A stretch of 64,000 bases of DNA, taken from Octopus vulgaris (lineage: Eukaryota). Each line of letters opens with the position of its first letter. Position 1 is the stretch's first letter. Below, piece after piece: positions 10,691 to 62,487 of this stretch. The notes under the pieces are model-generated. The model was not told the DNA's origin, ran no database searches, and was given only the letters and a program-made list of their open reading frames with translations. The DNA is taken from the NCBI GenBank assembly GCA_951406725.2, contig OX597814.1, forward strand, positions 209,622,001 through 209,686,000, written 5' to 3'. The translations under genes and the position numbers were made by a program.

Positions 10691-11165
10691 GGCGGCGAGC
10701 TGGCAGAAACGTTAGCATACCGGGCGAAATGCTTAGCAGTATTTCGCCTGTCTTTACGTTTTGAGTTCAAATTCCGCCGAGGTCGACTTTGCCTTTCATC
10801 CTTTCGGGGTCGATAAATTAAATACCAGTAACGCACTGGGGCCGATATAATCGACTTAATCCGTTTGTCTGTCCTTGTTTGTCCCCTTGTGGGTTGTAAA
10901 GAAATAGGTATTTCGTCTGCCGTTACGTTCCGAGTTCAAATTCCGCCGAGGTCGACTTTGCCTTTCATCCTTTCGGGGTCGATAAATTAAGTACCAGTAA
11001 CGCACTGGGGTCGATGTAATCGACTTAATCCGCTTGTCTGTCCTTGTTTGTCCTCTCTATTTAGCCCCTTGTGGGTAGTAAAGAAATAGGTATTTCGTAT
11101 GTCTTTACGTTCTGAGTTCAAATTCTGCCGAAGTCGACTTTACATTTCTTCGTTTCCGGGTCGAT
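10691..11165 (+). mobile_element. SINE family B multimer
   Basis: ggcggcgagctggcagaaacgttagc head; body repeated after aaagaaataggtatttcg junctions. Confidence 0.85.
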
Positions 11166-11555
11166 ATGATGCAATATTATTCCTTATTATGAACTTACTC
11201 AAGTTTATTCCGAGATCAGCAGTTTTCGAAATATTCCGATGTATTTTTTTTTATTCCAATAGATATATAGATCTTTGAATCATAACACGTATGTTTTAGT
11301 ACTGCACGAATATACGTCTGAGGCAACAACTACTTTACGGCTGGTAAATGTGATTCTCAAATCAGTTTCCGTGACATGCAGAGTAGAATGGAATGTCTAC
11401 TCGGCAAAAGATTTAGTATTCATCTCTGTTTCACTCATCCTTCCCCCTAGTGGAAAATATAAGAAACCACGACGACGACGACCACCACCATCACCACCAA
11501 TACCACCACCACCACCACCACCACCACCAATGCCATCATTATCATCATCATCATT

Positions 11556-32412: not shown

Positions 32413-32818
32413 AGGTGGCGAGCTGGCAGAAACGTTAGCACGCTGTGCGAAATGCCTAGCGGTATTTCGTCTGTCTTTACGTTCTGAGTTCAAATTCCGC
32501 CGTGGTCGACTTTGCATTTCCTCCTTTCGTGGTCGATTAAATAAGTACCAGTTACGCACTGGGGTCGATATAATCGACTTGATCCGTCTGTCTGTCCTTG
32601 TTTGTCCTCTCTGTGTTTAGCCCTCTGTGGGTTGTAAAGAAATAGGTATTTCGTCTGCCGTTACGTTCTGAGTTCAAATTCCGCCGAGGTCGACTTTGCA
32701 TTTCATCCTTTCGCGGTCGATAAATTAAGTACCAGTTACGCACTGGGGTCGATGTAATTGACTTAATCCCTTTGTCTGTCCTTGTTTGTCCCCTCTATGT
32801 TTAGCCCCTTGTGGGCAA
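32413..32818 (+). mobile_element. SINE family B dimer
   Basis: Consensus match; junction aaagaaataggtatttcg. Confidence 0.85.
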
Positions 32819-44886: not shown

Positions 44887-47800
44887 TCATATGTTGTGGT
44901 GTGTGCTATTGCTCCATTCTAGTTTTCTATTCAGGCTAGGTTTATTTTCTATTATATGTGTAGCTTCTGTAATTTGTCTAATTGTTGCATCTGTTCTATG
45001 TGTGGACAATATCTTAATCTCTATGTTATTGATTGATCCCCCGTGTTCCTGTTCGGCGTGTTGATACAGAATCGACGAGCTTTTACCTTCCTTCAGTTGT
45101 CTCCAATGTCCATTCACCCGCTCTCCTATGCTTCTTGCCGTTTCCCCTACGTATGTTATTGTCTTGTTACTGCATCGTCCCTCTATACATCTTATACTAT
45201 AGACTACATTTCTGGCTTTACAGTTTGTTTGTGGGCTAAATCTACATACAGTGCAATAGTTATCCGTACAGAGGCTTCTACTAAAAGGATAGGTTCTACC
45301 AATTATAGATTTGATAGGGTTGCCTGGCTTTTCAACAACCTTAATTCTTAGTTTAAGTTTATCCAGGGTCCTTCTAAAGCGGTACGCCAGTTCACCTCCA
45401 GGGGTGGTGTCAACGAACATGACACTCTGGTATTTATGGCTATCATACCAAGTGTTGGCCTTCCCTATTTTCTTTTTTGTCCTTTCTATAGTGTTCCATG
45501 ACTTGTTCCTATAGAGTGGGCAAATCCCATTCCTATCATTACATAATATATTATCAAATTTCTTCATGGCTCCTTTCTATACTCTGATCCTTTCTTTATG
45601 GCTGTAACCTGAGAACTGCATGCGGTGAATGAAATACTGTATGTGTCTCTTTAATTCTGTAGGCTCGCACATGCGTGACACATTTCTCATTATTCTGACG
45701 AGGTCTGCCATCAAAATATTGAATTTGGCATTGCCCGCAATGGCTGAGTTCCGGTGGATCAGGTATTTTGAGGCCATAGGTTTTGCATAGTATGAATGAA
45801 GGATTTTGGTTTTATTTTTCACAATTTCTAGCCAGAGTTCAGTGTCTAGTACTGGTAGTCTATGGTTGGGGTGTTTAGTGGGGTAGTCTATTGTGACCTT
45901 AATACTCTGGTGGATGGAGTTAGCTATTTGCTGGATGCTCTCCATAGTATTAGTTTCTAATTACTATATCAACATTACTCTCTTGTGGGGGTGCCTTTAC
46001 TACTATGTTCATATCATCAACATAGCGAGAGTACATGTTCACGAGTATGGATTTCTGCAGTAGTCGTTCTTTAAGCCTTCTGTCCCACCATACCATGAAA
46101 AGGTTGGCCACATCACCAGCGATACTAACACCGATGGCTGCACCCTCGTCCTGGGCATATATTTTATTATTAAATTTAAATGTGTGGCCTTTTAGGGTAA
46201 CTCTTATACTAGCTCCTAGTGCATGTGCGATCATTTTCTTTACCTGATGGACATTTGCGGGGCTCCGTATTGCTCTGGTCCATCCGCGCCATCTTTCTAT
46301 ATGTGTCTTCCTAGCCATAGAAGTAATTGTAGGCGGTCTACCACTTATACATCTACTGGGGCAGAAACTACTAAGATTATGTTTATCTAAGTATTCGTTA
46401 TTATATGTCAGTCTAAGTAGGAGGCCGAGTTCTTCTGTGTTGACATTACAGAACTCCACCTGGCTCTCGTTGATCATCTCCACGCACTTCTCCACTGCAA
46501 AATCTACGTCAATCGATGGGTATAGGGATACCACATCCATGCTACCTACTATACATCCTGTCAAGTCACAAGTTTTGTTACAGTCACTGATCCTGCTTAG
46601 GAGATCTTCTGTGCTGTCACACACATCAGGTGACATCTTGATTATAGGGCGTATGATCATTGAGAGGAAGTAGGAGATTCTGTAATTGCTAGCGATATTC
46701 GCTCCACAGACTGGTCTTGTTGGTGGTCCTGCTATAGGGTCAGTAAAAACTTTATGGTCCTTGCGAAGTCCATACAGTGCCGAGATATCATTGTTCCAGG
46801 CTTGGAAATTCTTTGCAGTACGTTTCTGGGGTCCCAAAACAATTGTCCACATCATCATGTGGGCATTGAGGACCTTTTCTCTCTCCTCATGCGCCTGTAC
46901 AGTTGTTATTTTTGTATTGGCGATATGAGGTTGCATTGCCTGGATGTAGTTCGGTAAGCTGTCTATTGACATCCTGCCGGACTTATCTGTGGGAAGGCAT
47001 ATCACCTCTCCGTTCCTCGTGCGCTGAATGAGCTTCTGTACGTCACATGCAGGTTTAATCCCGAGTTGTTGGGCCTCTGTCTTATTCTGTCTCTGTCTCT
47101 TAATGTATAATCCTAAAATCTGTCTAAGTTTGTTCCTAGCTATAGTGAACTGTGCTTCCATATGGTCATTAGTACGTCTTGGGGTGTATACTCTTTTGTT
47201 GAAGGGTAATGTTGTTGGATAAATCCGGTTCATGCAGTAAGTTTTGTCACATACGTTGAAGAATTGAGTGTCAAAGAGATGGGTATACATGTCAATGGTC
47301 TTTCTAGGGTTATCTTTATTATCGTTACTGTTTCCAACATCAGCCTTCCTATTATTATTATCACCATTACCACTACTACTATTATTCCTATTACCACCAC
47401 AACTATCACTACTATCCTCATTACTACTTCTACTGTTACCATCACCACTACTACTACCACTATTATTGTTATTACCTTTATTCCTACCATTGCCATTATT
47501 ACTATCATCGCTAGTGATATATTCATTGTTCCTGTTTCTGGTATATGTGTTGTTCATATTAGTGTTGGGTTTTATGTCTGTCTGTTGGTCCCTGTCATTC
47601 CCCCTGTTGTGGTTGTTATTTTTGTTCCTATGAGTATTGTTATCTGTTTCAAGTCTGCTGACTCCCTGTCCAAGGATTCTGTTGCATTCAACTTTATTTT
47701 CCATCGTGACCCCCATGACACAACTTTTATTCGTATCTTTGTGACTATGGTTATCTGTGTGTGTGTTTGTGTGTCGGTTCTCCCTATAATTGTTGTTGTT

Positions 47801-48278
47801 GTTGCTGTTGTATACGATTTTTTTCTCTCTGTTTGTGTTTTTGTTTTTGTATCTATTGTTTGCGTCTATGCATTCATTTTTTCTATTGTTGTTGTTGTTG
47901 CCGCTGTTAGGGTTCGTGTTGCTTTTGTTGATACGGTTGTTATTGCTGCGGTCATTATTGTTTGTGTTGTTGTTGCTGCGGTTAGTGTTTTTCACGTTGT
48001 TGTTGTTGTCGCAAGTGTTGCTTTCATTGTATCTATTCAAATTCCAACGTATTTTTGTGAACGACTTTTCAATCTCAGACAGGCATTTGATGGTATTCAC
48101 CTTTACTATACACTGCATACTTTGGTGGTAGTTGAAGTATCGATATTTCGTCTGGGTCCGTTGTTACTCCCCCATAGATGTTCGCTTCATTGTCTTTATT
48201 GAACTCTTCTGGTAGTAGCACATCTTCCATAATAATTCCATTTATTGTATCTGGATACTTCTGTTTTTCTTCCTTTGC
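44887..48278 (-). pseudogene. PLE reverse transcriptase / GIY-YIG endonuclease polyprotein (about 1130 codons remaining; frameshifts near 48101 and 45960, in-frame TAG at 45577-45579)
   Basis: RT motifs: PTDKSG, LYGLRKDHK, PTRPVCG, SMDVVSLYPSID, QDEGAAIGVSIAGDVANLFM, YSRYVDD, LPVLD. Linker: CTDNYCTVC. Endonuclease: VVY-x-YVGET-ER-H...H..H...EA...LN. Confidence 0.92.
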
Positions 48279-48316
48279 GATCCCGAAAACATAATAAATA
48301 AATACACAGATAAATA

Positions 48317-48401
48317 GGCAAGTGTCTTCTACTATAGTCTCGGGCCGACCAAACCCTTGTGAGTGGATTTGGTAGACAGAAACTGAAATAAGCCCGTCGT
48401 A

Positions 48402-48455
<54 letters not shown>

Positions 48456-48690
48456 TGTGTGTGCGTGTATGTGTGTGTGTGTGTGTATGTTTGTGTGTCT
48501 GTGTTTGTCCCTCCACTTGACGACCGAAGTTGGTGTGTTACGTCCCTGTAACTTAACGTTTCGGCAAAAGGGGACGATAGAATAAGTACTAGGCTTATAA
48601 TGATTACGTCCTGGGTCGAATTGTCCGACTAAAGGCAGTGCTCCAGCATGACCGCAGTCAAATGACTGAAACACAAATAAAAGAATAAAG
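48317..48690 (+). mobile_element. SINE family C 3' segment
   Basis: ggcaagtgtcttctactatag...aagcccgtcg(ta)n...gactgaaacacaaataaaagaata. Confidence 0.85.
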
Positions 48691-49630
48691 GAAGTATGTG
48701 TGTGTATATATAATCGCGTAAAGCGCGTACACGTACACCCATGTTTTGCTGCATGTTTCCTCAAACGGCGGAAGTTAACAACGAAGATGTTGGGCGATGC
48801 TACAAAGACATAGATTCTATACCAAGAGAGTATATGCGCGCACACACGTATGTGATATGTTTCTTTGTGTGTGTGTGTGTGTTTGTGTTTGTGTGTTTGT
48901 GTGTAAGGTCTTGGAGGGTCTCACTCTTTGCTCTGAAAAGGAAATGTCGTCCTCTCTCCAGACTGGATCAAAGTCTCTCTTGACCAGAAATGGCCTGAAC
49001 TCTTTGCATGAACACCCTCCCGGAACATAAATCCATGTCCCCTACATGGCCTTGCTTTTTGCTTTTTAAGCCAAAAAATTAACTCAACTTAACTTAACTA
49101 CCATACCAAAGTTCTCACGTTCATTCTCGATTAGAGATCCATCACCGTAATAGCTCAGGATTAAGAATGAAGGACCCTTCAATACCTTTAAAAAATATCA
49201 TAGATCTGCGAATTATAGAAGTGGATGTATCTAAAACCACATTTTAAAAAATGGCTGATCAATCAGACGAACCCTTATCTCGTTGAGGAACACAAGTGAG
49301 AGTGTCTTTGTGCATCCTCTCCATTCAACAGAAACCAAACGCGAAGAAGGGTCCACAAACACACACACACACACACACAGACACACACACGCATGTACAT
49401 ACTCACACTTACCTTACCTACCTATCTACCTACCTACCTACCTACCTACCTACCTACCTACCTACCTACCTACATATATACATACCTACCTATTTACCAA
49501 CCTACCTACCTACATACATACATACATATATAGATGCATACATACATGATGTCTGTCAACCCGTTAGATGGACATAACCATCGCTGATAGATGTGACAGC
49601 AATACCCTCGCAATACACACACACACGCAA

Positions 49631-52139: not shown

Positions 52140-52408
52140 GTGTGTGTGTGTGTGTATGTACACACACACATACACATGTAATTCCTTTACTGGTTTCAGC
52201 GATTGCACTATGACCATACTGGAGGACCGCCATATAGGATTAATCGAAGACATCGACCACCTTACTTATTTTCAAAGTTTGGTACGTATTGCATGGAAAT
52301 GAGGGACGTTTACGGGGAACGTCAACAAAGGAACATCGATTGCCATGAGGTGAGGGGCAAAAGCTCTCTTTTGGCACCTCCGGCTAACAATATTACTTCG
52401 ATTAGTAA

Positions 52409-53055
52409 GGAGGTGAGCTGGCAGAAACGTTAGCACGCCGGGCGAAATGCTTAGCAGTATTTCGTCTGCCGTTACGTTCTGAGTTCGAATTCCGCCGAGG
52501 TCGACTTTGCTTTCCATCCTTTCGGGGTCGATAAACTAAGTACCAGTTACGCACTGGGGTCGATATAATCGACTTAATCCGTTTGTCTGTCCTTGTTTGT
52601 CCCTTCTGTGTTTAGACCCTTGTGGGTAGTAAAGAAATAGGTATTTCGTCTGCCGAAAGGCGGCGAGCTGGCAGAAACGTTAGCACTCCGGGCGAAATGC
52701 TTAGCGGTATTTCGTCTGTCGTTACGTTCTGAGTTCAAATTCCGCCGAGGTCGACTTTGCCTTTCATCCTTTCGGGGTCGATAAACTAAGTACCAGTTAC
52801 GCACTGGGGTCGATATAATCGACTTAATCCGTCTGTCTGTCCTTGTTTGTCTCCCCTGTGTTTAGCCCCTTGTGGGTAGTAAAGAAATAGGTATTTCGTA
52901 TGTCGCTACGTTCTGAGTTCAAATTCCGCCGACGTCGACTTTGCTTTTCATCCTTTCGCGGTCGATTAAATTAAGTACCAGTTGCGAACTGGGGTCGATC
53001 TAATCGACTCGCTCCTTCTCCCAAAATTTCGAGCCTTGTGCCTAGAGTAGAAAAG
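52409..53055 (+). mobile_element. SINE family B nested multimer
   Basis: Two heads (52409 and 52659) and three bodies; ggtatttcgt duplicated at the junctions. Confidence 0.85.
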
Positions 53056-60403: not shown

Positions 60404-60733
60404 CACACATTGTGTGTTTCGATCTGAGACTGTGTGTTGAAACAGGAGCAATTTCAAAAGTTCTAGCCAATTAATAACGAACAAAGATGTGTTAAATTCA
60501 CTTCAGATTTAAATTTATTTCATGAGGTTTTAGTGACTAGATGCCATTTGAGTGAGACAAATTTTGACATTTCACGAAAAAATTGGGCAGGTGTTTTCTA
60601 CTATAGCCTTGGGCCAACCAAACCCTCATTAGGGGATTTTGTTGGCGGAAACTCTGTGTGTGTGTGTGTGTATGTGTGTGTGTGTATACATATGTATATA
60701 CTTATATAGATATATAGATATATAGATAATTAA

Positions 60734-61405
60734 TCTGTTCGAAGGTTTTATTTACCTAGTTTCGGTGGAATACATCCACTTGTTTTCAATAATAGAAATA
60801 TTAAAATTACTAAGTCTCTCTAAAAGAGATTACCGCAGCGTTACTGGAAATTAATTGTTATCGCCATATTAATATGGCAGTCTTGTAGATATAAGACTTA
60901 AAGCTGTCTGTGATTAGCTCCATGAGGCCATCGCCTTAAGATAGCTATTTGACACACAAACTGTGTCCATTATAACCTTCGAACAAGGGAGGTCAGCCGC
61001 TTCACACTGCTAGTCAGACAGCTACAGACGCGTTTCAGGGTATTTGAAAACAAGTGGATGTATTCCACCGAAACTAGGTAAATAAAACCTTCGAACAGAG
61101 ACGATCAGTTGCGACACCTGCTGGGTCGACTACGCTACATTGACAAGGGGCAAATACTCTGAAACGCGTCTGTAGCTGTCTGACTAGCAGTGTGAAGCGG
61201 CTGACCTCCCTTGTTCGAAGGTTATAATGGACACAGTTTGTGTGTCAAATAGCTATCTTAAGGCGATGGCCTCATGGAGCTAATCAGCGACAGCTTTTAG
61301 TCTTATATCTATAAGACTGCCATATTAATATGGCGATAACAATTAATTTCCAGTGACGCTGCCGTAATCTCTTTTAGAGAGACTTAGTAATTTTAATATT
61401 TCTAT
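60734..61405. mobile_element. Retrozyme-like element: A-B-A'-C-B' interleaved inverted repeats of a circularly permuted unit of about 360 bp
   Basis: A 60734-60789 is the reverse complement of 61044-61099. B 60792-61046 is the reverse complement of 61151-61405 with few mismatches. Confidence 0.8.
61134..61176 (+). ncRNA. Type I hammerhead ribozyme with U3-A8 compensatory core
   Basis: GCUACA-UUGACAA-GGGG-caaaua-CUCU-GAAAC-GC-GUC-UGUAGC; perfect 6-bp stem I. Confidence 0.7.
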
Positions 61406-62487
61406 GATATATAGATAAATACATATATAGATATAGATATATGCACAGACATATATATGTTTATACATACACAGGCACACACACAAATGTGTGTATGTGT
61501 GTACGTATGTGTGTGTATGTATGTATCTATGTGTGTGTGTATAATAATATATATATTCAGAAAGAGAGAAAGTAAGAGAGAGAGAGATAGAGAGCAAGGG
61601 GAGAGGGAAAGAGTGATTTATACTGTCTGTAGGCGGTGGAGTTGTCACAGTATTTACGTTTAATCAGCAACAGTTTAACTAGCACATGTCGGCCATTGAT
61701 ATGGATGGCGATAGACTGTCATGTGAAGTGTTTCACAAACTGCGCCCATCTCTCGGCCAGCACTTATTAAATTCAATCGAAACCGCCATCCGCTTATACA
61801 CGCACATAGAGCAAATATAATTATTCAACTTCGCGTATGAAAAGATGCGTCAGTTAGTTGGAGATACAAGGCCAAAAATGTCTATCAATGATTAATATGA
61901 CCTATTGACTTCATCAGAAGACGAAATATTGGTCAAGATAGAAATCTCTATTTCGGTTAAATGTTTAAATTCTACTTGGGTTATGTTTGCTTTTAATTCC
62001 TTCAATATTAATATATTAACTGCATGTTATTTACGGAATATACTCAGTCTGTTATGCTGTCTTATTTGTACACACGACTTTATATCGAGCAAAACAGGAA
62101 GATTAGATGTTTGCGTTTAACCTGTTTAAAATGGCAGCCAGTTTCTTCAAAATCATAACTTCTGAGAAAATTAGAAGCACATACAGTACAATGTAGGCTC
62201 CAATATAAAAGAGCAACAACATGGTATCTATTAGAAAGTCTTTGGCTGGAGATCTCTTTAATCAAGCGTGTCATGCTGCTAATCTCTTAAGCTTATACAC
62301 CGCTTTATTAACCAGGAAACAAAACTACAAACATGGATGCACGCACACACGCGCGCATACACACACATACATACACACACATGCACAAACACATACAGAC
62401 ACACAAGCACCAGGCACACGCATGGACGTACAAGCACACTTGCACAAACTTCACAAACACACACGCACACGTGCACACACAGACACA

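What the first reader, a model, noticed from the sequence alone, without database searches (positions are those of the whole stretch)
61134..61176. Hammerhead with double core change C3U plus G8A
Seen: the core reads UUGACAA instead of CUGANGA. It sits within a perfect 6-bp stem I (extendable across an internal loop by GAC/GUC), a 4-bp stem II, GAAA, palindromic stem III ACGCGU and a GUC triplet. Established: positions 3 and 8 form a Watson-Crick tertiary pair in the active fold, so U3-A8 is compensatory. Inference: the variant is preserved by function rather than produced by decay, and standard CUGANGA searches would miss it. A weaker UUGAAAA...GAAAC-UAG-GUA look-alike spans the B'/A' junction.
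Basis: partly seen in the sequence, partly recalled or inferred. Interest (0 to 1): 0.75.

Follow-up and report, generated by a model that had tools for sequence, protein, structure and literature searches.

The report
U3-A8 hammerhead in a retrozyme repeat
This is one copy of a widespread 365-base jumping repeat whose units carry a predicted self-cutting RNA with a paired two-letter swap; the swap is shared by nearly all sampled copies and has already been described in other animals, so the element is real but of a known kind.

Summary
The motif is real and both core changes are family-wide. It lies in a 362-365 bp tandem repeat. In a sample chosen without using this core, 55 of 57 copies read U3-A8 and none C3-G8. 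N7 varies (A/C/U), the stems and the stem III palindrome covary, and no core column carries a lineage-level change (0 of 11 against 56 of 193, p=0.026). The repeat looks like an animal non-LTR retrozyme: tandem monomers, inverted truncated 5' parts, two preferred 3' ends, insertion into (TA)n. A Penelope-like element (PLE) family in the same genome also ends in TA runs and carries its own U3-A8 hammerhead, so it is the likely mobiliser. U3-A8 is already in print (Perreault 2011; about 1,300 hits in Schistosoma PLEs, Cervera 2014), and this scan noted such retrozymes before in other genomes. This copy has a weakened stem II and no tandem partner, so it is probably a poor cutter. The weaker look-alike is a fixed part of every monomer but is imperfect and overlaps a possible snRNA-type promoter. 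Cleavage and expression are untested. New member of a known kind.

The parts
61134..61176 (+). Type I hammerhead (HH-B) with U3-A8 core; predicted cut after C17 at 61170
   Evidence: Sequence; family counts; RNAalifold finds stems I and II unaided on 16 copies
61140..61146 (+). Core U3 U4 G5 A6 C7 A8 A9; U3 = 61140, A8 = 61145
   Evidence: 55 of 57 copies U3-A8, 1 A3-A8, 1 truncated; N7 = A 27, C 17, U 12
61147..61160 (+). Stem II, 4 bp with two G-U pairs in this copy, 6-nt loop
   Evidence: Closing pair G-C 36, A-U 13, G-U 7 of 57; hairpin energies
61164..61169 (+). Palindrome ACGCGU; would give a 6-bp stem III between two hammerheads
   Evidence: One subfamily has ACAUGU, a double change that keeps the palindrome (10 of 57); two 43-nt segments cofold into a double hammerhead
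61044..61408 (+). One full 365-bp monomer of the retrozyme-like repeat
   Evidence: Head-to-tail arrays of 2 to 7 or more units at other loci; predicted circular fold z -5.4 to -9.6 in 6 of 6 full monomers
60734..61046 (-). Inverted, 5'-truncated copy (unit positions 108-365 then 1-56); lacks the 5' half of the hammerhead core
   Evidence: Inverted repeats I1 (258 nt, 97%) and I2 (56 nt, 100%); mapping
61083..61226 (+). Long hairpin that extends stem I outward
   Evidence: Inverted repeat I6; compensatory G-C/A-U changes at two flanking pairs
61044..61080 (+). Second hammerhead-like motif (HH-A, also U3-A8) that overlaps a possible snRNA-type promoter element; at this junction its natural upstream stem I strand is missing
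   Evidence: 1,048 matches genome-wide, control 0; A15.1 changed in 8 of 52 copies of one lineage; promoter match inconclusive
60753..60789 (-). HH-A in the inverted copy, with the natural tandem junction upstream
60684..60733 (.). Degenerate TA-repeat flank (left side of the insertion)
61409..61465 (.). Degenerate TA-repeat flank (right side of the insertion)
   Evidence: 60 of 77 element ends are followed by TA repeats

Best explanation
The motif is a type I hammerhead with a U3-A8 core inside one monomer of a 362-365 bp tandem repeat family, likely a non-LTR retrozyme, whose multimeric transcripts would be cut once per unit and likely copied back into TA repeats by a Penelope-like element of the same genome. 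Shown: the motif, its fixation in the family, covariation of stems I, II and the stem III palindrome, tandem and inverted architecture, two preferred 3' ends, TA-repeat flanks, and a co-resident PLE family (RT + GIY-YIG) with its own U3-A8 hammerhead and TA-run ends. Established: U3-A8 keeps the 3-8 Watson-Crick pair and such variants cut in vitro (as stated in PMC3088659); hammerheads with a 1-2 bp helix III and a palindromic loop cut best as dimers (PMC4209133, PMC7229834). Inferred: transcription of arrays, possibly from an snRNA-type promoter near unit positions 2-21 with a start near 64-68; cutting after GUC through a double-hammerhead fold; ligation to a ~363-nt self-paired circle; reverse transcription by the PLE protein primed at a nicked (TA)n, starting at one of two AT-rich sites and giving more-than-unit cDNA. 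This genomic copy is probably a weak or dead end.
For: Fixation: 98 of 100 listed matches with the core left as N read UUGACAA (126 matches, 26 not listed); 97 of 100 listed of 1,769 are U3-A8; among 52 C3 matches, 6 have the family stem II and all 6 keep A8. Selection signature in the core-independent sample: shared changes in 0 of 11 core columns against 56 of 193 others (Fisher p=0.026), private changes at the background rate (6 in 11 against 104 in 193). Covariation: stem I pair A-U 18 / G-U 28 / G-C 9; stem II closing pair G-C/A-U/G-U; palindrome GC/AU; 97.4% of cells paired, far above the slid controls. Retrozyme and PLE architecture. Mobiliser: 781-aa ORF with GIY-YIG (E 5e-7) and RT (E 5e-6, under the curated cut-off), a CX4CxxC linker, U3-A8 hammerhead downstream in 10 of 11 loci. 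Family also present in contigs of runs labelled as six organisms.
Against: No cleavage or expression data. In 4 of 4 natural tandem dimers the double-hammerhead fold lies 3.4-8.4 kcal/mol above the minimum and the cross-palindrome pairs have probability 0.0 (tertiary contacts are not modelled). The selection test rests on a few lineages (p=0.026); the number of pairs with two-sided changes was not above shuffles (145 of 500). The retrozyme shares almost no sequence with the PLE: best match 17 of 20 bases, E 0.029 in a small search. Another PLE family in the loci (L132) also ends in a TA run, so the partner is not unique. In the anole PLE, hammerhead cutting was not needed for insertion in vitro (PMC11167929).
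Confidence: 0.75

Rival explanations
1. The hammerhead is a relic. U3-A8 was inherited from a founder, and the repeat spreads through PLE machinery as uncut linear RNA; the hairpin is kept as a protein-binding structure, not for cutting.
For: Hammerhead mutants did not block insertion by the anole PLE in vitro, and no reads ended at its cut site (PMC11167929). The active fold is not the predicted minimum. The conservation test is only p=0.026.
Against: Unpaired core positions are invariant across lineages while N7, the one free position, changed twice. The stem III palindrome was kept through a double change, which fits dimer cutting.
Confidence: 0.15
2. The repeat is the detached pseudo-LTR of an autonomous PLE that still exists, not an independent non-coding retrozyme.
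For: PLE-like footprints; PLE pLTRs carry such hammerheads (PMC4209133); retrozymes are proposed to derive from pLTRs (bioRxiv 10.64898/2026.07.22.740005).
Against: No PLE ORF adjoins the unit as its body in the 20 + 12 loci screened for ORFs. Among 42 PLE-centred loci (30 GIY-YIG hits and 12 fetched stretches) the unit matched in one, as a separate insertion about 1.2 kb from the ORF end. The pLTR of the abundant PLE has a different sequence. Only 150 of 6,136 GIY-YIG candidates were scored.
Confidence: 0.07
3. The repeat is ordinary satellite DNA spread by recombination, and the hammerhead match is chance or decay.
For: No Rfam hit; the isolated motif folds no better than shuffles.
Against: Short arrays scattered over many contigs, 5' truncation and inversion, fixed 3' ends in TA repeats; 1,769 matches against 9 controls; covariation.
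Confidence: 0.03

Closest known systems
Animal non-LTR retrozymes (mussel, coral, axolotl; PMC7229834)
   Same: Non-coding tandem monomers of similar size (mussel 350-390 bp), type I hammerhead, GC below 50%, strongly self-paired predicted circle; weak palindromic helix III as in axolotl HHR_Amex1, which needs dimers.
   Different: U3-A8 core; a second hammerhead-like motif in every unit; insertion in (TA)n with PLE-type inverted 5' parts. Circular RNA and cleavage are shown for the known cases, not here.
U3-A8 minimal hammerheads of Schistosoma mansoni Cercyon PLEs (PMC4209133)
   Same: Same core covariation, about 1,300 hits; palindromic helix III region; PLE context.
   Different: Those are mostly single, heterogeneous motifs; the Schistosoma minimal hammerheads are described with a 7-8 bp helix II and an unpaired base after A9. 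Here helix II is 4 bp, stem I is 6 bp in a long hairpin, and the motif sits in young tandem monomers.
Natural U3-A8 hammerheads (Perreault et al. 2011, PMC3088659)
   Same: First report of natural C3-G8 to U3-A8 covariation; states that such variants were already proven active in vitro.
   Different: Several scattered examples there; here thousands of copies in one animal genome.
EN+ PLEs of the Neptune/Nematis type (features as described in PMC8557442)
   Same: Partial tandems, inverted 5'-truncated copy, optional 3' tail, (TA)n targets; the co-resident PLE has the CX2-5CxxC linker before GIY-YIG.
   Different: The repeat encodes no protein; its two 3' ends are about 60 nt apart, against a 30-40 bp tail. 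The clade of the co-resident PLE was judged by motif only; no tree was built.

Membership tests
Type I hammerhead ribozyme | Core N3-UGA-N7-N8-A9 / GAAA / NUH with a Watson-Crick 3-8 pair | tested here: met
   U3-A8 in 55 of 57 copies; other core positions without shared change
Type I hammerhead ribozyme | Stems I and II pair, stem I open-ended | tested here: met
   stem II weak in this copy
Type I hammerhead ribozyme | Stem III, as monomer or through a palindrome in a dimer | tested here: inconclusive
   Palindrome kept by a double change; isolated segments cofold as a double hammerhead, but full tandem dimers do not at the energy minimum
Type I hammerhead ribozyme | Match to an Rfam hammerhead model | tested here: not met
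   No hit at gathering score or E<=10; a library match, not a defining biochemical feature
Type I hammerhead ribozyme | Site-specific self-cleavage | not testable with these tools
   Only contigs were available
Animal non-LTR retrozyme | 150-450 bp tandem monomers, each with a type I hammerhead | tested here: met
   362-365 bp arrays with the motif in each unit
Animal non-LTR retrozyme | No coding body or LTRs; GC below 50% | tested here: met
   No associated ORF body in the loci screened; sequence; PBS and PPT were not searched for
Animal non-LTR retrozyme | Highly self-paired monomer | tested here: met
   61-64% paired, z -5.4 to -9.6 against 30 shuffles each, 6 of 6 full monomers
Animal non-LTR retrozyme | Expressed as linear and circular RNA | not testable with these tools
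   No raw-read RNA run was offered
Metazoan PLE minimal hammerhead (Cervera 2014) | Unpaired base between A9 and G10.1; long helix II | tested here: not met
   HH-B has a 4-bp stem II directly after A9 in the commonest subfamilies
Autonomous Penelope-like element | RT plus GIY-YIG ORF between pseudo-LTRs | tested here: not met
   None at this locus or attached to the unit elsewhere in the loci examined
PLE-mobilised element | Partial tandems, inverted 5'-truncated copy, preferred 3' ends, (TA)n targets | tested here: met
   71 of 77 ends fall at unit positions 285-310 (37) or 345-365 (34); 60 of 77 followed by TA repeats; inversions
Second hammerhead HH-A | Intact junction: stem I next to U3, stem II next to A9, conserved A15.1 | tested here: not met
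   One extra A before U3, 2-3 extra bases after A9; A15.1 to G in 8 of 52 copies of one lineage
snRNA-type promoter (PSE) | Match to this genome's U1/U2 upstream element at the right distance | tested here: inconclusive
   7.1 bits, first or second best site in 3 of 3 units but not above shuffles (P 0.26-0.34 where it tied for best); TTA 33 nt upstream as in U1/U2; a LINE insertion begins 54 nt downstream

The most novel reading that the evidence does not exclude
The retrozyme and the abundant PLE family form a matched parasite-host pair. The monomer is built from a relic of the PLE's own U3-A8 ribozyme (HH-A), now doubling as an snRNA-type promoter, plus a working U3-A8 hammerhead in a long hairpin. 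The U3-A8 core is a lineage-wide, slowed ribozyme that cuts only when the PLE protein binds, which ties RNA processing to the mobiliser and has made U3-A8 the majority core in this genome.
Probability: 0.15. Interest if true: 0.6.

Novelty: new member of a known kind. Interest (0 to 1): 0.3.

Why it matters
The core variant itself is known, so the finding does not change hammerhead chemistry. Its value is practical. For one descriptor U3-A8 motifs outnumber canonical ones in this genome (4,389 against 2,472), so censuses built on CUGANGA undercount retrozymes here. The genome also holds a young retrozyme family and an intact PLE family with the same rare core and the same TA-repeat ends. The enzyme that moves animal retrozymes is still a hypothesis in the papers read, and this pair offers a direct test of it.

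Tried and rejected
Rfam: no hammerhead hit; the miRNA-family hits come from microsatellites and the inverted repeat. Expression: no RNA holder listed; contigs of four runs guessed to be RNA cover the unit but cannot show strand, ends or level, so they are not used as evidence. The first conservation test (52 loci) was set aside for HH-B because many loci had been picked through the core itself; one search repeated it on a sample picked through HH-A. One stem II energy (L002) was cut one base off register and is ignored. Suspected full-length PLEs between distant repeat clusters (L031, L032) were separate insertions, one with a LINE inside. Other U3-A8 matches outside the two families were few (60 against 24 controls) and not followed. 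Long ORFs in the window had no Pfam match (4 of 10 tested). Literature: 'hammerhead + C3U + G8A' gave 0 papers; 'hammerhead + Penelope + octopus' gave nothing on this family; the retrozyme/cephalopod search returned shark and fishery papers and was uninformative. Lunse et al. 2017 and Przybilski and Hammann 2007 are not held; one search fetched an unrelated paper. Rejected readings: private decay of this copy; HH-A as an equally good ribozyme; U3-A8 as the only core in this genome.

Full report
OBSERVATION. It is the only such match in the window, against 0.02 expected. Rfam does not see it. Two caveats apply to this copy. Stem II has two G-U pairs and is worth about -0.9 kcal/mol against -5.3 for the commonest family form. 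Folded alone, the 43 nt pair G5-A6-C7 with the GUC triplet and do no better than shuffles (z -0.83).

WHAT IT SITS IN. The window is from a 2.8-Gb animal genome, G000; I guessed a cephalopod from recalled repeats, and no call confirms that. The motif lies in a 365-bp unit (61044-61408). Upstream is an inverted, 5'-truncated copy (60734-61046; unit positions 108-365 then 1-56), and both sides are TA-rich microsatellite. Elsewhere the unit forms head-to-tail arrays of 2 to 7 or more copies with a 362-365 bp period, often with an inverted part at the 5' side. Of 77 distinct element ends, 37 fall at unit positions 285-310, 34 at 345-365 and 6 elsewhere; 60 of 77 are followed by TA repeats. Six of six full monomers folded as circles are 61-64% paired, z -5.4 to -9.6 against 30 shuffles each. 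Contigs from runs labelled as six organisms hold the unit; the listed differences include N7 but not positions 3 or 8, though 28 and 39 rows were not shown.

IS U3-A8 FIXED? Yes. With the core written as seven N, there were 126 matches and 0 controls; 98 of the 100 listed read UUGACAA, one had G5A and one U3-G8. A looser pattern gave 1,769 matches against 9 controls, and 97 of 100 listed were U3-A8. Among all 52 C3 matches (22 controls), 6 had the family's stem II and all 6 kept A8. To avoid picking copies by the core, I took 60 of the first 100 listed hits (of 1,048) to the other motif, HH-A, one per array in list order, leaving out the window's own copy and the last four rows. Three ended early and were dropped. 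Of 57, 55 were U3-A8, one A3-A8, one truncated, none C3-G8.

IS IT KEPT BY FUNCTION? The pattern fits selection on the source elements followed by neutral decay of inserted copies. On a tree of the 57 copies, shared changes hit 0 of 11 core columns and 56 of 193 other columns (one-sided Fisher p=0.026), while private changes hit the core at the background rate (6 in 11 columns against 104 in 193). N7, the free position, is A in 27, C in 17 and U in 12. One stem I pair is A-U (18), G-U (28) or G-C (9); the stem II closing pair is G-C (36), A-U (13) or G-U (7); the palindrome is ACGCGU in most and ACAUGU in 10. RNAalifold recovers stems I and II and a flanking helix with compensatory changes on 16 copies. 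The named structure has 97.4% of cells paired against 21-49% for slid controls, but the number of pairs with two-sided changes was not above shuffles (145 of 500). The test rests on a handful of lineages, and the ACAUGU change could also arise by two CpG mutations.

THE LIKELY MOBILISER. A GIY-YIG search found an abundant family with an intact 781-aa frame (148 matches among 150 scored of 6,136 candidates). It has GIY-YIG and RT domains (the RT score is under the curated cut-off), a CX4CxxC linker, an upstream second frame and partial terminal repeats. These are features of Neptune/Nematis-type PLEs as described in PMC8557442 (passages); I built no tree. Ten of 11 such loci carry a hammerhead downstream of the ORF with core UUGAUAA, an unrelated 5-bp stem II, the palindrome ACAUGU and a weak A/U stem I; the eleventh is another PLE family. 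The four members printed end in TA runs, as does the other family. So a second, unrelated element has the same U3-A8 core. Sequence shared with the retrozyme is slight: 17 of 20 bases around HH-A (E 0.029, small search). Genome-wide, one descriptor gives 4,389 U3-A8 matches (control 350) and 2,472 C3-G8 matches (control 117); canonical families exist here too.

THE SECOND LOOK-ALIKE. HH-A opens every monomer (1,048 matches, 0 controls), so it is not an accident of the inversion junction. Its junction is imperfect: an extra A before U3, extra bases after A9, and A15.1 changed in 8 of 52 copies of one lineage. An earlier scan note (e1-8663845) suggested a promoter-like motif. U1 and U2 genes here share a core at -54 to -58 with TTAA about 33 nt further up (28 of 30 loci). 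Unit positions 2-21 score 7.1 bits, first or second best in 3 of 3 units but not above shuffles, with TTA at the same spacing. A LINE in L032 sits in a 17-bp duplication that begins at position 64, 54 nt behind that core. This is suggestive, not shown.

MECHANISM. Shown: anatomy, fixation, covariation, footprints. Established: U3-A8 preserves the 3-8 pair and such variants are active in vitro (PMC3088659, passages); weak palindromic helix III favours cutting as dimers (PMC4209133, parts 1-2 of 4; PMC7229834, passages and section 14). Inferred: arrays are transcribed, cut once per unit through a double hammerhead, ligated to circles, and copied by the PLE protein at nicked (TA)n from two AT-rich start sites. 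Internal RT starts and AT-rich cleavage were shown for an anole PLE, whose hammerhead needed the protein to cut and was not needed for insertion (PMC11167929, parts 1-2 of 4). Folding gives mixed support. Two isolated segments cofold as a double hammerhead (-24.1 kcal/mol, stem II shifted by one base), but in 4 of 4 natural dimers that fold is 3.4-8.4 kcal/mol above the minimum. At this locus there is no tandem partner, and a read-through RNA would fold into the inverted repeat; forcing the hammerhead costs 45 kcal/mol.

COMPARISON WITH WHAT IS KNOWN. Natural U3-A8 covariation was reported in 2011 (PMC3088659) and in Schistosoma PLE hammerheads in 2014, with about 1,300 hits (PMC4209133). Non-LTR retrozymes of 350-390 bp are known from mussel (PMC7229834), and their link to PLEs is argued in PMC7761336 (passages) and bioRxiv 10.64898/2026.07.22.740005 (part 1 of 5 and passages). 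PMC7151607 was seen as passages only. I found no paper on this family in the searches, but the library is partial. Lunse et al. 2017 and Przybilski and Hammann 2007 were seen only as reference-list titles, and no supplements were read; they may list this family. This scan noted U3-A8 retrozymes before in other genomes; those are AI notes and are not counted as support.

VERDICT. Observation confirmed; interpretation right on fixation, but the variant is known and this copy is a poor example. It works like an animal non-LTR retrozyme and meets every sequence-level feature tested; cleavage and circular RNA remain untested. New member of a known kind, interest 0.3.

Noticed in passing
L032:1590-6931 (G000:C1, about 162622090-162627430): A two-ORF LINE (zinc knuckle ORF1; endonuclease, RT, zf-RVT ORF2 of 1,140 aa) is inserted inside a retrozyme unit with a 17-bp duplication starting at unit position 64.
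   Followed up: partly
L230 and L237, upstream of U2: These two U2 genes lack the promoter core; the sequence before +1 resembles the 3' end of the LINE in L032, as if a related LINE inserted at the U2 start.
   Followed up: partly
L123-L131, L133: Young two-ORF PLE family with an intact 781-aa frame; its terminal repeat holds a U3-A8 hammerhead and short tandem repeats with CCAAT-like and TGACGT motifs.
   Followed up: partly
L135, L140, L143: An abundant family with a canonical C3-G8 minimal hammerhead (5-bp stem II, extra A after A9), often in inverted pairs; not characterised.
   Followed up: no
L057:1013-1531: A canonical hammerhead-like motif directly follows the end of a frame that looks like the C-terminus of an RTE-type LINE (resemblance recalled, not tested).
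   Followed up: no
L040 (G000:C16:10847072-10847105): One family copy has U3-G8; six others have C3-A8. No doubly reverted copy was seen.
   Followed up: yes
window 10739-11166, 32461-32815, 52407-52899: Tandem copies of a SINE-like repeat with periods of 169, 184 and 250 bp.
   Followed up: no
window 45950-48920: Long overlapping stop-free frames (737, 330 and 281 aa) in a repeat-rich stretch; no Pfam match.
   Followed up: partly
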